A program made the position numbers and the translations under genes. Of a DNA stretch of 10,873 bases, positions 1 through 6,983 are shown piece by piece; within the stretch, counting starts at the first letter, position 1; each line of letters starts with the position of its first letter. The notes below the pieces were generated by a model. That model was not told the origin of the DNA. It saw only the letters and a list, made by a program, of their open reading frames with translations, and did no database searches. The stretch is from a virus (taxonomy: Duplodnaviria; Heunggongvirae; Uroviricota; Caudoviricetes): IMG/VR virus record IMGVR_UViG_2529292887_000009; one strand, given 5' to 3'.

Positions 1-249
1 ATGCGAATTGAGATCTGTATCGCTAAAGAAAAAATCAGCAAAATGCCAAAAGGTTCTGTTCCTGCCCTACAGCAAGAAATGCTGCGACAAATCAGTAAGC
101 GTTATGACGATGTAGAAGTGATCGTTAAATCTGCCAGCAATGATGGACTCACTATTTTAAGAGCCGTGGATAAAGAATCCGCGCAAGAGTTTGTACAAGA
201 AACGCTTCAAAATGTCTGGGAAACAGCGGACGACTGGTTTATTCACTGA
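1..249 (+). CDS. DinI-like protein (SOS-response modulator family), 82 aa
   Basis: ATG at base 1, stop at 247-249. Translation MRIEICIAK...[17 protein letters not shown] matches the DinI family in length (about 81 aa), N-terminal MRIE.IAK motif and C-terminal W-E-[ST]-A-D-D-W-F motif. Promoter and any LexA box would lie outside the window. Confidence 0.75.
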
Positions 250-1233: not shown

Positions 1234-2961
1234 TTATAATGGAAAATACTCAAACCCCGAAGCTCCTGACGACACATACTCACCCACGCTGACTGTACGC
1301 CACTGAGAACCATCAAATGTCACCTGAAGCGGCCTGTAAGATACCCTGTCAATAAGGGTTTTGTTTCCGTCGTTGTAACCGCCAATCCCCGTAATCATCG
1401 CACCAATATCCAAATCCACTACCCATGTAGTGCCGTCTGTTTGCGGCGCATAAGTCTGTTTATTACCCAGCCTGATACCCACAACCCGGCTCTTCCCGTC
1501 TGATGCCCCGGGCGGTCCCATCGGCCCGGTTTCTCCACGCTCACCTCTGGGACCGGGGTCGCCTTTCTCCCCTTTCGGTCCCTGCGCTCCCCGCGGACCA
1601 GCGGGGCCTGTTGCTCCCGTTTCACCTTTCGGACCCTGTGCTCCGGGGTCGCCTTTCTCTCCTTTCGGACCGGGAACACCACCTCCTGCTGCAGCCTCTT
1701 CTGCCTTTGTTTTCGCTTCATTTGCCACATCCATTGCCGCCTTCACGGCCTTCGGCGTGGCTGCCTTTGTTTCGTCATTACTGCCAGTATCACTGCTTAA
1801 CTGCACCACACCTTTCTGCGTCGTGCTGGCATCCCGCTGGCTGACCGTATCCGGTTTGTTCTTTGTGCTGTAATCCACCCGCCAGTGGAAATACTGTGTG
1901 TCGCCGTAAACCGTACAGGTACAGACCGTGCCATTAATAAACCCCGTTGCACCGTATTCGCCAATGGTGACCCGGACTATGGCTGCCTCATACTTCCCCA
2001 TCACCTCAATGACACAGCCACCCAGATTAAGTTTTCCCGGTCCGACATCCGTGATGACCTTATTGAATCCCGCATGCAGTGATGCCTTCATCATCCAGTA
2101 AGGCTGGTCAAATGCCCCTTTTTCTTTCAGCCAGGCGACAAACTCGCGAGTTTTCCATTCACCGGACCCCGTATGAATGTCCCGCCCGTATACTCTGGCA
2201 GCTCCCACGGTGTTCAGAAACTTCACCTTATCCGGGATATCGTCACCGTTTTTCGCTTTCTCAAGGCATCCGTCCGCTTTGTCCATTGCCGCTTTCACCG
2301 CTTTCGGGGTGGCTGCCTTCGTTTCATCATCACTGTCCGTTGCGCTGCTTAACTGCACAATTCCCTTCTGTGCCGTCGTCGCATCCGGCCCTCCCGGCTC
2401 GCCTTTTTCGCCCTTCTCTCCCCGTTCACCTTTCACACCCTGAAGCCCCTGTGGTCCTGTCTCACCACGCTCACCCTTTGGCCCACGCTCGCCGGTATCG
2501 CCTTTTGGCCCGGGAATACCCTGCGGCCCGGTGTCCCCCTTATCCCCCTTCGGTCCCCGCGCATTCTCTGCCCGTTTTTTTGCCTCCTCCGCACTGGCTG
2601 CGGACGCTTCCGCACGTTTCAGGATTTCCGCTGCCACCGCTTCCAGCTCTGCAAGGGCTTTCGGGTAATACTGTGCGTCTTCCAGGTCCATCAGAAATTT
2701 ATTCAGCGTTCCCGGTGCAGAATCCGCCTTCACCAGAATGTCACCCACATATGACGGCGCGTACCCTTCCGTGTTCAGCGTCACCCGGTATAACCCGGGC
2801 TCAACATCCATACTGTAACTGCCGGTTTCCCCCGGCTGACCATACGCCACCGTGGTGACAATCACCGTCTCCGTTGTGCGGCGCGCTTTCAGCTCTATCG
2901 TGCATCCCGGTACCGCTTTTCCCGTACCATCCTTCAGCACACCCGATATTCTGACTGTCAT
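1234..2961 (-). CDS. stf: side tail fiber protein with two collagen-like Gly-X-Y blocks, 575 aa
   Basis: N-terminus [28 protein letters not shown] resembles the lambda Stf N-terminus. Two long G-X-Y runs ([25 protein letters not shown]... and [28 protein letters not shown]...). Two copies of the phage tail-fibre repeat motif QKG[IV][30 protein letters not shown] upstream of the ATG at 2961. Confidence 0.85.
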
Positions 2962-2974
2962 GGATTTCCCCCAT

Positions 2975-3008
2975 AAAAAAACCGCAGTACCGGTTTCCCG
3001 GCCTGCGG
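2975..3008 (-). terminator. intrinsic terminator downstream of the hok-like gene, overlapping the stf ribosome binding region
   Basis: Minus-strand reading: CCGCAG-G-CCGG-GAAA-CCGG-TA-CTGCGG followed by TTTTTTT (plus-strand A-run 2975-2981). Stem CCGCAG/CTGCGG with an inner CCGG/CCGG pair. The T-run runs directly into the stf SD/ATG. Confidence 0.5.
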
Positions 3009-3103
3009 TAATATTTGTGGTTTGTTGGTGTTAAAACGGTGCCATCCGGCTGACCACCCTCAGCAACCGGTCGGCGGGGGATATTCTCCCCCGCCACGGT
3101 TTC

Positions 3104-3244
3104 TTACTGCTTACACTGTAAGAACGCCGCAATCTCCGCGCCCGCTATCCGGAACCGGAACTCGCACAGTGAAGTGTGGGTGATCCAGATAATGAGCACT
3201 ACCGTGATACACATCACGGTGGTTTTTAACGGTTTTTGCGACAT
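3104..3244 (-). CDS. Hok/Gef-family type I toxin (46 aa membrane peptide)
   Basis: Below the 60-aa cutoff of the ORF track; found by manual translation: MSQKPLKTTVMCITVVLIIWITHTSLCEFRFRIAGAEIAAFLQCKQ. Near-match to the Hok/Gef signature (C-I-T-VV-x4-I-x-[RG->H]-x2-L-C), with E[FIL]R[FY]R and E[IVL]AAF[LM]xC motifs as in HokA/HokB/Hok. Strong SD AAGGAG 8 nt upstream of the ATG (3244); TAA stop at 3104-3106. Confidence 0.7.
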   Translation of the reverse strand: MSQKPLKTTVMCITVVLIIWITHTSLCEFRFRIAGAEIAAFLQCKQ

Positions 3245-3397
3245 AACGCTTGCTCCTTTTACGGAGAGGCGCTAACCTTTCACTTGCTTAGGATGAATGG
3301 TCAGGCCTCGGGTTAAACATGAATGTTTTGTCCGGGGCCTTTTCACATCCGGCCTTCAGGTGTTCCCTCCGGCCATCAGCCAAAGGCACCCGCGCAT

Positions 3398-3426
3398 ACT
3401 GTACGGTTTTTGTCTCCTTCCGGCAA
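3398..3426 (-). promoter_or_regulatory. candidate sigma70 promoter for the hok-like gene
   Basis: Minus strand: -35 TTGCCG (plus 3421-3426), 17-bp spacer, -10 TACAGT (plus 3398-3403). Lies 17 nt after the J stop and would give a leader of about 145 nt, similar to known hok mRNAs. Hexamer matches are only 4/6 each. Confidence 0.2.
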
Positions 3427-3442
3427 TCCCGGGGCGCGATGT

Positions 3443-6400
3443 TCAGCGGATGCTGATCCCCGCGCTGTTTTTCTTCACCACTATCGCCTGAAGGTTACTG
3501 ATTCGTGAACTGCCCCAACTGTTATTCTGACGCCGTGAGCTCACGGTAAAACTCAGGGTGATATGACCACCGCCAGCTGGCATATCGATGATCCCGCTGA
3601 AAATTCCCGGCTCTGTCACTGACCTGCCTGAATAAATCCGGCGTCCATTCTGATCAACATGCAGGAAGCACTCTGTCCAGATGTCATTACTGGTGCGGGA
3701 TTCCTGTTTTGACCCGACATAGATTATCGGCGGGATTATAATCTGCCGGTCAAAGCGGTGATCGTCATACACCGTCAGCGTTCGTGTACCGTTCGCAAGG
3801 TGACTACCATCCACCGGAAAAGCCACCCCTGCACATTTCACAAGATCACCAATAATGTTCTCCGCTTTCAGCGTGCCATTTATCGTACAGTTCTCCGCTA
3901 TCACGACATTATTGAGCGTGCCCGAGTTCGCACTGATATGTCCGCTGATGTCCGCATTGCGGGCCGTCAGCCTGCCCTCCGGCGTCAGGGAGAACGTCGG
4001 GGGATTGCCGGACGAGGTGATGCTCACTGCAAACAGTCGCTTCAGGAACACATCGTTCATGAACAGCTGATTCCCCTGCGCCACAAACAGCGGCGTGGTG
4101 TTGCCGTTCTCCGGGTTAATCATCGCGATACGGTCCGCCTGCAGCAGAATATTGCTCAGGGGCTGGCCATCAGCATCCTCAATCCCCGCACCAATACCGG
4201 CAACATACGGAATGCCGTTTTTCGTTTTCTGCACCTTCAGCATGTACAGCGCTGCCAGCTCATCATTCGTGTCTGACTGGACCTGCTGTATCTGCTGTAT
4301 GGTCGCGCTCTGGTCTTCCAGGGTTTTACTGACCGTCTGTGTGATTTCATTGCGGGTTTCGGTGATGGTGGTCTTCATCTCCGCCATCTCATCATCAAGC
4401 TGGCTGTTATCAATCAGCTCCCACATCCCCTGTGCCAGATGTGTCTTCCCGATTTCTCCTCTGAAAAAGTCCAGATACCCTTCCGCATCATTGCTCGCCC
4501 GGCCACTGGCTTCCACAAACGCAGATTTCCCCACCAGATTGACGCTGCGCACATAAAACCAGAAATCCTTCCCCGGCCTGATGTGCGGGCCGGAGACGCT
4601 CCACTGGCTGCCGGTACCCAGATAACGGGCTGAGGTTTCCACCTGTGCCGTGTCCGTGATGCGTTTTTCTGAGAACCAGAATTCATACTGTACCGTCGGG
4701 TCATACACCGCCAGCACCGGTACTGCTGTTATCTGAAAATACCCCGGCGTCAGTTCAATGCTGGCCGGTGCCGCCGGTGCATTAATCCGGAATGTGGTGG
4801 TGGCAGGTTCGCCCTGCTGGCCGTAGCTGTTTATCGCCCTGACCGTCAGGGTGTATTCCCCGAGCGGCAGGCCACTGAAACGGTGCTCCGTGTCGGCAGT
4901 GATGGCGCTGGTCACCAGGCGGCTGTTTTCACCGTTTCCGCTGGTCAGGCGCAGACTGAAGCGCACGCCCTTCACCACCCGCGGCGTGTCCCATTTCGCC
5001 AGCGCCAGATACTGGCCGTCTGAGGCACTCACCTCCACCGTGAGGTGCTGCACTGCCGGCGGGATGACGCTGTTCAGTGAGCCGGACATCGGCTCAAAGC
5101 GGGCTCCGTTATCCACAATGGCTTCTTTTTCCGGTACGTGCTGCACTGCCGTGATGGCAAAGGTGCCGTCCGTGTTTTCCCGGATGGAAACACAGCGGAA
5201 CAGGCGACGACGCAGTGACGGCAGGGAGAGTCCCCACACACCGTATGTTGCCACGCCATCAGGCAGGACGCTGACCTGTATCCGGTCCGGGGCGGGGTGT
5301 GCAGTGATGTCCACGCGCACCGGCTTACCGCTGCCGTTAATCAGGTTCACCGTCGATGTCCCTGTCTCCGGCAGTGTCACCTCACGGTCCAGCGTCAGTG
5401 TGCGGCTGGCGGCATCGATGGACAGGATGCGTCCGCCGGTCAGGGTCCCGGCATAGTCGTTATCACAGATTTCAATGATGTCACCGGGTGTGTGCCGCAG
5501 CCCCTGAGACCCGAGCGTGAAATCCACCGTCTGCGTTTCCAGCAGTTCTGTCTTTATCACCCACAGTCCGGCACGGTGAGCCTGACCGCGGCTGGTACAG
5601 CCGAACGCGTCCATCTTCAGCAGGTTGCGCCCGTAGCGCAGGATGGCGTCCGGGTCTTCCACCAGTTCCGTGGACGTCTGCCAGCCGTTCTGCGGGTCAG
5701 TGTAATTCACCTCCACCGCCGTGTGCCGGTCCTTCAGGGCACTGAAGCTGTAGCGGAACCCCACGCCGTTATCATCCACCACCACATCGCTGTTGGTGTA
5801 CGGCCACACCACATCCGACGGACGGTCCTGAACGAACGTCAGCGTCTGGCCGTTCCATACCGGCATACAGCGCATCGCCGAGCAAAAATCCCCCAGGACA
5901 TCCCACACCTTACGCTGCTGTGACAGGTACGCATTAAAGGTCATCCGCGGCTCTGTGCCCCCGAAACCATCCGGGACCGTCTGGTCGCAGTACTGCCCGA
6001 TGGCATACAGCGCCCACTTGTCCACATCCGCGGCCCCCAGGCGTTTTCCCATCCCGTAGCGCGGGTGAGTCAGCATGTCCCACAGGCACCAGGCCGGGTT
6101 ATTGCTGTATGCCGGTTTCAGACTCCCGTCCCAGATACCGCTGTAGGTGCGTTTTTCCGGGTCATAGTTTGACGGCACCTGAATGATGCGGCCGCGGATA
6201 TGGTAGTTCACCACCATCTGCTGGCCACCGAACTGCTCCGCATCCACCTGCAGCCCCACAATGGCCGTGTTCGGGTAGCACTGTTTCACATCGATGATTT
6301 CGGTGTATGACGACCACAGCGTTCTGTTCTGCAGCTGGTCCGTGGTACTGTCCGCCGTCACCCTGACCACCCGGATGTTAAAGGGGCGCTCAGGGAGATT

Positions 6401-6910
6401 ATTCAGAATCACCGACGTCAGGTACTGCGAGGTGGTCTTGCCGTTAATGGTGACATCCTTCTCCGTCACCCAGTTACCGTTACGCTCAAGCTGAATCAGC
6501 AGGCGGACAGAAGAGGGATTACGGTCACCCTTTGAGGTGGTCTCCACCAGTGACTGCACCCCGAAGGTGACCCGCAGACGGTCAATGTTCGCTGACGTGA
6601 TGGTGCGCGTCACCGGCTTTGCCTTCGTCACCTCCACGCCCAGTGCGGTTTCTGCCCCGGAGGACTCAAAGCCTTCAGGTGGTGTCTGCTCCTGCTCCCC
6701 GGCACGCCAGACGGCGGTCACACCGTGTATCACGGGATTACCGTCCGTGTCCGTCAGCGGGGTTTTGTTCACCAGAATACTCTGCAGTCCCTTCACCGGA
6801 CCTTCCACCGGTCCCTCACCAATGGCATCAATCACGCTCATCATCTGCGTGGATTTGAGATTGTCCTTCGCCTCACGCGGTGTGTGCCCCTTGCCGCCCC
6901 CTTTACCCAC
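3443..6910 (-). CDS. J: tail tip / host specificity protein J (central tail fiber), about 1155 aa
   Basis: Long collinear similarity to lambda gpJ ([17 protein letters not shown]..., [104 protein letters not shown]). Start placed at GTG 6908-6910 (aligns with the lambda N-terminal MGKGSSKGHTP; preceded by AAAGGGGGA), not at the TTG at 6961 used by the ORF track. Confidence 0.9.
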
Positions 6911-6948
6911 TCTGTCCCCCTTTCCTGTCTGATGTCTGAATCTGTTTA

Positions 6949-6983
6949 TGCCCAAAAACAACAGGCACCCCGGAGGGTGCCTG
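6949..6983 (-). terminator. terminator-like hairpin (minus-strand orientation) just upstream of the J ribosome binding site
   Basis: 9-bp stem CAGGCACCC (6962-6970) / GGGTGCCTG (6975-6983) with a 4-nt loop; on the minus strand it is followed by TTGTTTTTGGG (plus 6949-6960). Confidence 0.35.

What the first reader, a model, noticed from the sequence alone, without database searches (positions are those of the whole stretch)
3245..3442. Hok-like gene lacks a mok-type overlapping frame and has no recognisable Sok antitoxin
Canonical hok loci are translated by coupling to an overlapping mok frame and are repressed by an antisense Sok RNA made from the leader. Here the hok frame closes at a TAG ten codons upstream, and the other two frames have no start codon plus RBS overlapping the toxin start. 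The toxin instead carries its own strong SD, which may be partly sequestered by an upstream CUCC anti-SD stretch (CCUCUCC-GUAAAA-GGAG). I could not find a convincing plus-strand promoter and terminator pair in the roughly 200-nt leader. The control logic of this toxin therefore appears to differ from the textbook hok/sok arrangement.
Basis: inference. Interest (0 to 1): 0.55.

Follow-up and report, generated by a model that had tools for sequence, protein, structure and literature searches.

The report
Prophage hok/sok toxin locus lacking mok
This is a hok/sok-type toxin-antitoxin cassette in a lambda-like prophage that does carry a recognisable Sok antisense RNA gene, but it belongs to a widespread phage-borne branch that has lost the mok leader frame thought to be needed to translate the toxin.

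Summary
The finding is half right. The 198-nt leader (3245-3442) upstream of a 46-aa Hok/Gef gene (3104-3244, minus strand) is homologous along its whole length to the canonical hok/sok leader (Rfam sok, E=1.8e-10, though below the gathering score). It has a conserved hok promoter, tac/fbi 5'-3' pairing with compensatory changes, the ucb hairpin and the Sok-target hairpin. On the plus strand there is a Sok gene: promoter TTGCTC-N17-TAACCT, with the same -10 hexamer as I read upstream of the annotated sokW of phage 933W, then a GC hairpin and UUUU. So 'no recognisable Sok' is wrong.

'No mok' is right, and it holds for the whole branch. None of 52 distinct relatives has a start codon behind the conserved GAGG that reads into the hok ribosome site; 49 of 51 canonical loci do. 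The relatives come from J-stf, lom-adjacent (Stx phage) and P2-like prophage sites. Hok in this branch is under purifying selection (median dN/dS 0.28), and a 2026 preprint lists branch representatives among its toxic constructs. In plasmid R1, loss of the mok start abolishes toxicity, so this branch probably translates hok directly from its own SD. Control would come from mRNA folding and Sok. That mechanism is inferred, not shown. Verdict: a new variant of a known kind, of moderate interest.

The parts
3104..3244 (-). hok toxin gene, 46 aa (MSQKPLKTTVMCITVVLIIWITHTSLCEFRFRIAGAEIAAFLQCKQ)
   Evidence: Pfam HOK_GEF E=3.8e-10. RefSeq relatives are annotated 'Hok/Gef family protein'. Median dN/dS in the branch is 0.28. 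Branch representatives are listed among the tested constructs and not among the three reported as non-toxic in preprint 10.1101/2025.08.07.668861.
3398..3426 (-). hok promoter: -35 TTGCCG (3426-3421), 17-nt spacer, -10 TACAGT (3403-3398); predicted start at G3391
   Evidence: Homology among 64 relatives begins exactly here, with -35 TTGCCx and -10 TAnAnT (TACAGT/TAAATT/TAGATT/TAGAAT) conserved. The Rfam sok model, whose first position I take to match the hok mRNA 5' end, starts at 3391. Transcription itself was not tested.
3376..3391 (-). tac element: GGGUGCC (3391-3385) plus GGCUGA (3381-3376), the 5' partner of the 5'-3' fold-back
   Evidence: Pairs with 3043-3038 and 3053-3048. Helix 1 is 99.5% paired. 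In helix 2, 4 of 6 pairs change on both sides across 64 sequences.
3304..3339 (-). ucb (GGCCCCGG 3339-3332) / former mok SD box (CCGAGGCC 3311-3304) hairpin; its complement is the Sok terminator stem
   Evidence: Rfam alignment, conservation, fold.
3275..3301 (-). Sok-target (sokT) hairpin: ACCAUUCAU / loop CCUAAGCAA (contains a YUNR motif, CUAA) / GUGAAAGGU. The position where canonical loci have the mok AUG is AUU (3298-3296).
   Evidence: 5 of 9 stem pairs change on both sides. Comparison with mokB/mokC/mokW positions.
3250..3278 (+). Sok promoter: -35 TTGCTC (3250-3255), 17-nt spacer, -10 TAACCT (3273-3278)
   Evidence: TAACCT and the TTG of the -35 are invariant or nearly so in 64 relatives. 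The same -10 and spacing lie upstream of the annotated sokW of 933W (TTGCCT-N17-TAACCT, my reading), and the same layout upstream of the annotated sokB (TTGCCG-N17-TAAGAT, my reading).
3286..3343 (+). predicted Sok antisense RNA, ~58 nt: single-stranded 5' tail GCUUAGGAUGA..., hairpin 3303-3340, UUUU
   Evidence: The fold has the same shape as annotated SokB and SokC (-22 kcal/mol, z=-2.7). The 5' end is placed by analogy with SokB/SokW (6-7 nt after the -10). Rfam sok hit over 3233-3391. Expression was not tested.
3247..3270 (-). hok translation initiation region: anti-SD GCGCCUCUCC, loop GUAAAA, SD AAGGAG (3258-3253), CAAGCGUU before the AUG
   Evidence: Sequence. Local hairpin in the predicted folds. 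Helices 5 and 6 are 100% and 82% paired.
3073..3095 (-). 3' stem-loop just after the hok stop (GGCGGGGGA/UCCCCCGCC)
   Evidence: 95.7% paired, with 2 pairs changed on both sides.
3038..3053 (-). fbi (fold-back inhibition) element: UCAGCC (3053-3048) and GGCACC (3043-3038). Homology among relatives ends here.
2974..3009 (-). intrinsic terminator of the hok transcript (CCGCAGGCCGG...CCGGUACUGCGG + U7), immediately before the tail-fibre start codon at 2961
   Evidence: Fold -21.6 kcal/mol, z=-5.6.

Best explanation
[quoted passage not shown] A weak promoter just after J gives a ~415-nt hok mRNA starting near 3391. Its 5' end (tac) pairs with a 3' element (fbi), which locks the full-length RNA. 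On the other strand, a promoter inside the hok ribosome-site region (TTGCTC-N17-TAACCT) gives a ~58-nt Sok RNA (about 3286-3343). Sok is complementary to the target hairpin and to the GAGGCC box. Up to here the locus is canonical, as shown by homology, conservation and covariation; transcription itself was not measured. The deviation is that this locus, like its whole branch of 46-aa Hok genes, has no mok reading frame. Inferred: Hok is therefore translated directly from its own SD (AAGGAG, 8 nt before the AUG) once the mRNA is processed and refolds. The SD is masked by the adjacent CCUCUCC anti-SD in the locked form. Sok then represses by triggering duplex cleavage and decay, and/or by capturing GAGGCC so that the anti-SD closes on the hok SD again, rather than by blocking a leader ORF.
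For: Toxin identity. Leader homology: Rfam sok covers model positions 1-157 at 3233-3391, E=1.8e-10. Nucleotide relatives: ~77% identity to an unannotated hok locus next to lom in 933W and other Stx phages and to loci in P2-like prophages, and 99.4% identity to Stx phage 1720a-02. The conserved block runs from the hok promoter to fbi and stops there. Covariation: 85.9% of cells paired against 33-51% when partners are slid, and compensatory changes in the tac/fbi extension (4/6 pairs), sokT (5/9) and the 3' stem (2/9). Sok: the fold matches annotated SokB/SokC, and the -10 TAACCT and spacing match what I read upstream of the annotated sokW. Takada 2021 (PMC8621323) reports that mutating the sokW promoter removes antitoxin activity. 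No mok: 0/50 and 0/52 unique leaders against 3/3 and 49/51 canonical loci. One-nucleotide indels between near-identical members shift every frame. Toxin kept by selection: 22 protein variants, almost all intact; median dN/dS 0.28 with dS up to ~1; cluster 72 and 79 peptides are listed among the tested constructs and not among the three non-toxic ones. In three full-length branch mRNAs with defined ends (window, 933W-type, P2-type), the predicted hok TIR opening energy falls after 3' truncation and rises when the Sok target is blocked.
Against: No transcript, 5' end, processing site or protein was observed; everything on expression is inference. In R1, mok start-codon mutations and early mok stops abolish Hok toxicity (PMC9841398), so a mok-less locus could be silent. 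The thermodynamic support for direct initiation is weak. With fixed windows, the TIR opening energy is only ~2 kcal/mol lower than in canonical phage loci, and the distributions overlap. The predicted FL/Tr/Sok-blocked shifts (medians 1.4 and 1.9 kcal/mol, seen in about 70-75% of members) are also seen in mok-containing hokW. Conservation of the Sok promoter hexamers cannot be separated from conservation of the overlapping hok SD and sokT elements. 20 of 50 relatives (none in the window's lineage) have some other ORF that reads into hok from starts at -103, -76, -46 or -28.
Confidence: 0.6

Rival explanations
1. Silent or decaying locus. Loss of the mok start (AUG to AUU at 3298-3296) switched hok off, as single mutations do in R1. 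The cassette is then a hitch-hiking remnant whose Sok and RNA structures no longer matter.
For: In R1, G118T (AUG to AUU) and other mok start mutations are loss-of-function. Fozo 2010 notes that in some strains chromosomal hok-sok sequences have degenerated and appear non-functional. In K-12, IS elements sit beside hokA, hokC and hokE.
Against: mok is absent from every lineage of a branch that has diverged to dS ~1, yet Hok stays intact with median dN/dS 0.28. Stems are maintained by compensatory changes. The hok SD and AUG are conserved. The peptides are listed among the toxic constructs. The cassette has been moved intact into three different phage contexts.
Confidence: 0.12
2. A cryptic coupling ORF replaces mok. 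A near-cognate start (AUU 3298, exactly where mokB/mokC/mokW have AUG, 7 nt after GAGG) opens an 8-codon leader ORF. It ends at UAG 3274-3272, and a terminating ribosome there would melt the anti-SD and hand over to the hok SD.
For: The AUU is positioned like the canonical mok AUG. The UAG lies 10 nt before the SD, inside the strictly conserved GGUUAGCGCC.
Against: AUU is specific to the window's sub-lineage. Other members have ACU, UUC or GUU at that place, and no canonical or near-cognate start in any frame. The conserved UAG is also explained as the complement of the Sok -10 hexamer. Stem positions covary as RNA, not as codons.
Confidence: 0.1
3. Standby-type control, as in tisB/IstR-1. The structured hok ribosome site needs a 30S subunit to load first on the single-stranded sokT loop/GAGG region of the processed mRNA, and Sok competes for that standby site about 40-100 nt upstream.
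For: The predicted Sok duplex (about -42 to -100) does not overlap the hok SD or AUG, so direct occlusion is unlikely. The GAGG box is kept without a start codon. The mechanism is known for another type I system (review PMC4147584).
Against: Conservation of GAGGCC is fully explained by its role as the Sok terminator stem and ucb partner. There is no direct evidence for standby binding. The hok TIR is only weakly structured in the predicted processed form.
Confidence: 0.15
4. Hok is made mainly from phage late read-through transcripts (J-hok-stf are co-oriented), not from its own promoter, and serves lysis or release on induction. Sok only silences leaky expression in lysogens.
For: Gene order and strand. 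The hokW-sokW locus of Sp5 assists lysis and phage release after induction (PMC8621323).
Against: The cassette keeps its own conserved promoter and a terminator, and it occurs in non-late contexts such as after ogr in P2-like prophages. This reading is compatible with the best explanation rather than exclusive of it.
Confidence: 0.1

Closest known systems
hokW-mokW-sokW of phage 933W / Sakai prophage Sp5 (annotated in AF125520; studied by Takada et al. 2021)
   Same: Prophage-borne hok/sok. Same mRNA plan (tac, ucb, GAGG box, target hairpin, anti-SD/SD). By my reading of the annotated coordinates and the sequence, the Sok promoter has the same -10 TAACCT, a 17-nt spacer and a TTGCxx -35. Sok 5' ends are at -49 (sokW) and about -42 (window).
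   Different: hokW has a 70-codon mokW starting at ATG -57, just behind GAGG; the window locus has none. HokW is 51 aa, the window Hok 46 aa. Rfam sok scores 113.5 bits for hokW against 51.1 here. The same phages carry both loci at different places.
hok/mok/sok (parB) of plasmid R1 and K-12 hokB/mokB/sokB, hokC/mokC/sokC
   Same: Hok/Gef toxin, cis-antisense Sok over the leader, 5'-3' fold-back, SD AAGGAG for hok, and the GCCUC box downstream of the target hairpin.
   Different: These all have a mok ATG 5-7 nt after GAGGC that reads through the hok start. [quoted passage not shown] Here no such frame exists.
Unannotated hok locus downstream of lom in 933W, VT2-Sakai and other Stx phages, and hok after ogr in P2-like prophages
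   Same: Same branch: 46-aa Hok (63-67% identical), ~77-79% nucleotide identity across the whole mRNA, same conserved elements, same lack of mok.
   Different: Different insertion sites and different terminators after fbi. Some P2-type members have a 78-codon ORF from an ATG at -103.
tisB/IstR-1 (type I system with upstream standby-site control)
   Same: The antitoxin RNA pairs well upstream of the toxin ribosome site, and no leader ORF is involved.
   Different: Unrelated toxin and RNAs, and a trans-encoded antitoxin. The resemblance is functional speculation only.

Membership tests
[quoted passage not shown] | Small Hok/Gef membrane toxin ORF | tested here: met
   PF01848 E=3.8e-10, 39.6 bits against a cut-off of 22.
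[quoted passage not shown] | cis-encoded antisense Sok gene (promoter, 5' tail, terminator hairpin) within the hok leader | tested here: met
   TTGCTC-N17-TAACCT plus hairpin/UUUU at 3250-3343 (+). Homologous to annotated sokB/sokC/sokW. Met at sequence level only; the transcript was not observed.
[quoted passage not shown] | Rfam sok covariance model at gathering score | tested here: not met
   51.1 bits against a gathering score of 59 (E=1.8e-10, full-length match). The whole branch scores 35-55 bits and canonical loci 87-118.
[quoted passage not shown] | mok: leader ORF with its own SD that overlaps or reads into the hok start and is the target of Sok | tested here: not met
   No ATG/GTG/TTG or near-cognate start reads into the hok TIR in the window. 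0/52 in the branch against 49/51 canonical loci.
[quoted passage not shown] | Long-range 5'-3' pairing (tac/fbi) locking the full-length mRNA | tested here: met
   GGUGCC/GGCACC is 99.5% paired. In the adjacent helix, 4/6 pairs are compensatory.
[quoted passage not shown] | Sok-target hairpin with a YUNR loop, and the ucb/GAGG hairpin | tested here: met
   sokT stem has 5/9 compensatory pairs. Loops read CUAA/UUAA/UUCA/UUCG/UUGA. ucb GGCCCCGG / CCGAGGCC are conserved.
[quoted passage not shown] | Slow 3' processing to an active mRNA; RNase III cleavage of the Sok-hok duplex; killing on loss of Sok | not testable with these tools
   Needs Northern/RACE analysis and genetics.
Standby-site type I control (tisB/IstR-1-like) | 30S pre-binding at an upstream single-stranded site that the antitoxin RNA occludes | not testable with these tools
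   Only the geometry is compatible: the Sok duplex ends ~25 nt before the SD.

The most novel reading that the evidence does not exclude
A natural, abundant hok/sok lineage has dispensed with the mok leader ORF. The former mok SD box (GAGGCC) now acts purely as an RNA switch element. In the processed mRNA it pairs with the GCCUC/anti-SD box and frees the hok SD for direct initiation. Sok re-captures GAGGCC (and recruits RNase III), so that the anti-SD closes again. Under this reading, Sok represses a toxin without blocking any ribosome directly.
Probability: 0.3. Interest if true: 0.65.

Novelty: new variant of a known kind. Interest (0 to 1): 0.5.

Why it matters
hok/sok is the textbook model for antisense control through a leader ORF, and the mok step is treated as obligatory. 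A deep branch that lacks mok would show that the coupling step is dispensable, and it gives a natural system for asking how Sok can silence hok without it. This branch matches about a third of complete E. coli genomes and includes Stx-converting phages. Its toxin is kept under selection and is toxic according to a 2026 preprint. On the practical side, these loci fall below Rfam's gathering score, so their Sok genes are systematically unannotated. The most recent survey of Hok diversity explicitly left Mok and Sok unanalysed.

Tried and rejected
(1) Generic sigma-70 and terminator scans found nothing on the plus strand. I set this aside because the scan's thresholds would, by my reading, also exclude the -35 hexamers upstream of annotated Sok genes.

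(2) Rfam at gathering score gave no hit. The E-value search recovered a full-length sok match.

(3) I first assumed the locus was hokW. It is not: hokW/mokW/sokW lies elsewhere in 933W.

(4) Search for a trans-acting complement to the hok SD region in the window found only the site itself. The one long inverted match (82-109 against 3239-3266, 75%) lies inside an unrelated 82-aa ORF and was judged a chance match.

(5) Thermodynamic tests of a 'free hok SD' gave a clear difference only against R1 and hokB. Against the larger canonical phage set the difference was small and the distributions overlapped, and hokW shows similar shifts. I treat this as inconclusive.

(6) Candidate surrogate leader ORFs were rejected because none is conserved across the branch. 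These were GUG-AAA-GGU-UAG at 3283-3272, AUG-UGA at about 3347, ATG 3320 and GTG 3389.

One mistaken call used a non-existent RNA model. The R1-like row of alignment A3 used wrong coordinates and was ignored.

(8) Steif & Meyer 2012, 'The hok mRNA family', is not held in the library. I could not check whether it already notes mok-less members.

Full report
WHAT IS THERE. The window carries lambda-type tail genes on the minus strand: J (3443-6961) and a side tail fibre with collagen-like repeats (1234-2961). Between them lies a 46-codon ORF (3104-3244, minus strand) that matches Pfam Hok/Gef (E=3.8e-10). The flagged interval 3245-3442 is exactly the spacer between the J stop codon and the hok ATG.

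CHECK OF THE OBSERVATION. Reading the minus strand, the hok frame is closed by TAG at -30 (3274-3272). The frame used by R1 mok (one base upstream) is closed by TAA at -46 (3290-3288). The third frame is closed at -17. None of them has a canonical or near-cognate start that reads into the hok start. The SD AAGGAG sits 8 nt before the ATG, and CUCC-GUAAAA-GGAG can form a hairpin. These parts of the observation are correct. The strong SD and the CUCC box are not unusual, because R1-like hok, hokB, hokC and hokW all have AAGGAG and an upstream GCCUCU box.

THE LEADER IS A CANONICAL hok/sok LEADER. No Rfam family reached its gathering score. An E-value search, however, aligned the sok model (RF01794) from end to end (positions 1-157) to 3233-3391 at 51.1 bits, E=1.8e-10, against a gathering score of 59. 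The model is written in the sense of the hok mRNA, and I take its first position to be the mRNA 5' end. The DNA is 99.4% identical to Stx phage 1720a-02. It is ~77-79% identical, across almost the whole predicted mRNA, to a hok locus just downstream of lom in 933W, VT2-Sakai and many Stx phages, and to hok loci after ogr in P2-like prophages. About 1750 of 5426 complete E. coli genomes have a match. In RefSeq these loci carry only 'Hok/Gef family protein' and no sok.

I collected 85 further loci and aligned 64 distinct sequences. Homology starts at a promoter-like pair: -35 TTGCCx, 17 nt, -10 TAnAnT. In the window these are 3426-3421 and 3403-3398. Homology then runs through GGGUGCC at 3391 and stops right after GGCACC(C) at 3043-3038, beyond which each context has its own terminator. 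That is the extent expected for a hok transcription unit with tac at the 5' end and fbi at the 3' end.

Pair counting on a structure drawn from the window sequence gave 85.9% paired cells, against 33-51% when partners are slid. Changes on both sides occur in 4 of 6 pairs of the tac/fbi extension, 5 of 9 pairs of the Sok-target hairpin and 2 of 9 pairs of the 3' stem. The structure was derived from one of the aligned sequences, which favours it somewhat. The compensatory pair types (GC/CG 33:30, CG/GC 29:21, UA/CG/GU in sokT) do not depend on that.

Sok IS PRESENT. On the plus strand, TTGCTC (3250-3255), 17 nt and TAACCT (3273-3278) are followed by a GC-rich hairpin (3303-3340) and UUUU. The 62-nt stretch folds into a single-stranded 5' tail plus terminator hairpin (-22 kcal/mol). 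The annotated SokB and SokC of K-12 fold into the same shape. I read the promoters of the annotated Sok genes from their annotated 5' ends and the sequence upstream. This gives TTGCCG-N17-TAAGAT for sokB, and TTGCCT-N17-TAACCT for the sokW of 933W, which has the same -10 hexamer as here. Takada et al. report that mutating the sokW promoter abolishes its antitoxin effect (PMC8621323). In the 64-sequence alignment, the complement of TAACCT and the TTG of the -35 are invariant or nearly so; one member has TATCCT instead. By analogy with SokB/SokW, Sok starts at 3285-3286, and its first ~11 nt pair with the loop and upper 5' arm of the target hairpin. That loop keeps a YUNR motif in all lineages. 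The simple promoter/terminator scan missed the site for reasons that, by my reading, would also exclude the promoters of annotated Sok genes.

mok IS ABSENT, THROUGHOUT THE BRANCH. In hokB, hokC, an R1-like plasmid hok and hokW, an ATG lies at -57/-58, 5-7 nt after GAGGC, and its frame reads through the hok start. At that position the window has AUU, which opens only an 8-codon frame ending at UAG -30. Among the branch's distinct leaders, 0 of 50 and 0 of 52 have a canonical start 4-13 nt behind GAGG that reads into the hok SD. This compares with 3 of 3 and 49 of 51 canonical loci, the latter mostly hokW/hokC-type phage loci plus K-12 and R1-like loci.

Twenty of 50 branch members have some other read-through ORF, from ATG -103, ATG -76, TTG -46 or GTG -28. 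These are lineage-specific and absent from the window's lineage. Near-identical members differ by a 1-nt indel just before the ATG (GCGTTATG or GCGTTTATG), and the 933W type has another indel. These shift every upstream frame relative to hok. The stem positions where canonical loci hold the mok AUG covary here as RNA pairs: CAU/GUG, GAU/AUU, UUC/GAA, GUA/UAG. The sequences are related, so these counts are not independent events. Still, the branch contains several deep lineages (dS ~1), and all of them lack mok.

IS THE TOXIN STILL IN USE? The branch has 22 Hok variants, almost all with an intact ORF. Pairwise dN/dS has a median of 0.28 over 264 pairs with dS>0.15. The preprint 10.1101/2025.08.07.668861 lists three peptides among its tested constructs. 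They are cluster 72_1589 (identical to the 933W-type Hok), 72_1621, and 79_1563 (three residues different from the window's Hok). The preprint reports that only 19_179, 60_1482 and 69_1540 of 45 constructs were non-toxic. It also states that Mok and Sok were not analysed because Mok is hard to predict. None of the papers I could search mentions a mok-less hok/sok lineage.

HOW IT PROBABLY WORKS. In R1, mok start-codon mutations, including the AUG-to-AUU change, and early mok stops abolish Hok toxicity (PMC9841398). So the branch must either be silent or translate hok another way. Selection on the coding sequence, and the maintained RNA architecture, argue against silence. The simplest alternative is direct initiation at the hok SD.

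Folding predictions for the window, a 933W-type and a P2-type mRNA show three states. In the full-length form, the anti-SD pairs with the SD. In the 3'-shortened form, tac pairs with ucb and GAGGC pairs with GCCUC, leaving only a 3-bp SD hairpin. When the Sok target is blocked, the closed form returns. In those three RNAs the opening energies were 11.9-15.1, 9.6-11.2 and 12.4-13.4 kcal/mol respectively, against 17-20 kcal/mol in all states for hokB and R1-like hok.

On larger sets the effect is small. The median fixed-window opening energy is 11.3 against 13.6 kcal/mol, with overlap. The median shifts are 1.4 and 1.9 kcal/mol, and hokW behaves similarly. I therefore treat the switch model as a hypothesis, not a result. 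Sok could equally act through RNase III-mediated decay alone, or by competing with ribosome standby binding. A near-cognate AUU leader ORF is possible in the window's sub-lineage but is not conserved. Because J, hok and stf are co-oriented, late read-through transcription may also deliver hok mRNA during lytic growth, as proposed for hokW in phage release.

COMPARISON AND VERDICT. The locus works like hok/sok and passes every sequence-level membership test except two: the mok frame (tested, not met) and the Rfam gathering score (not met). It is best described as a member of a distinct, phage-borne, mok-less branch of the hok/sok family. The nearest studied relative is hokW-mokW-sokW, which sits at a different place in the same Stx phages. 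Novelty: a new variant of a known kind. Interest is moderate (0.5): a specialist would be surprised that mok is dispensable in a selected, abundant lineage, and the question is directly testable, but no expression data exist yet.

Noticed in passing
L004/L095 (AF125520.1 45,490-45,869 and 58,460-58,734): Phage 933W (and VT2-Sakai/Sp5) carries two hok loci. One is the annotated and studied hokW/mokW/sokW. The other is an unannotated 46-aa hok with a Sok-like gene but no mok, just downstream of lom. In the original record only a neighbouring hypothetical gene (L0129) is annotated there.
   Followed up: yes
L004, L007, L008, L013, L017, L036, L047, L054 against L001, L002, L094, L095: The Rfam sok model scores 35-55 bits on every member of this branch (gathering score 59), but 87-118 bits on canonical loci. 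Annotation pipelines will therefore never call Sok at these loci.
   Followed up: yes
L047:362-519, 856-1013, 1361-1489: Three sok/hok-leader matches about 500 nt apart on one IMG/VR contig: apparently a tandem array of three hok/sok cassettes.
   Followed up: no
L007, L056, L063 (ATG at -103 relative to hok; also L013, L079, L082, L087, L089): In P2-like prophage members, a 78-codon ORF starts at an ATG 103 nt upstream and runs in the mok-type frame across nearly all of hok. In the window the same ATG is followed at once by TGA. This may be a lineage-specific substitute for mok, or chance.
   Followed up: partly
L009, L010, L012 (GTDB contigs titled Planococcaceae MAG, Vagococcus sp., Xanthomonas pisi): E. 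coli-type hok loci of this branch appear on contigs assigned to Gram-positive genera and to Xanthomonas; one of these contigs is only 857 bp. This looks like contamination of those assemblies rather than real host range.
   Followed up: no
window 1-249 (+): An 82-aa ORF ([14 protein letters not shown]...[10 protein letters not shown]) resembles DinI-family proteins from memory. It was not run against Pfam. A 28-nt, 75% inverted match between 82-109 and the hok start region lies inside it and looks like chance.
   Followed up: partly
window 3245-3250 and relatives L015-L032: One-nucleotide length polymorphism between the hok SD and the ATG (GCGTTATG or GCGTTTATG) among members with 96-98% identical Hok. 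It changes SD-AUG spacing from 8 to 9 nt and shifts all upstream frames.
   Followed up: partly
L014:1809-1995 (-): A strong STnc540 sRNA match (185.7 bits) lies next to the hok locus in Salmonella enterica subsp. diarizonae.
   Followed up: no
window 1234-2961 (-): The side tail fibre downstream of hok has collagen triple-helix repeats and phage-fibre repeats. Its start codon (2961) follows the hok terminator U-run by only about 12 nt, so it must be expressed by read-through.
   Followed up: no
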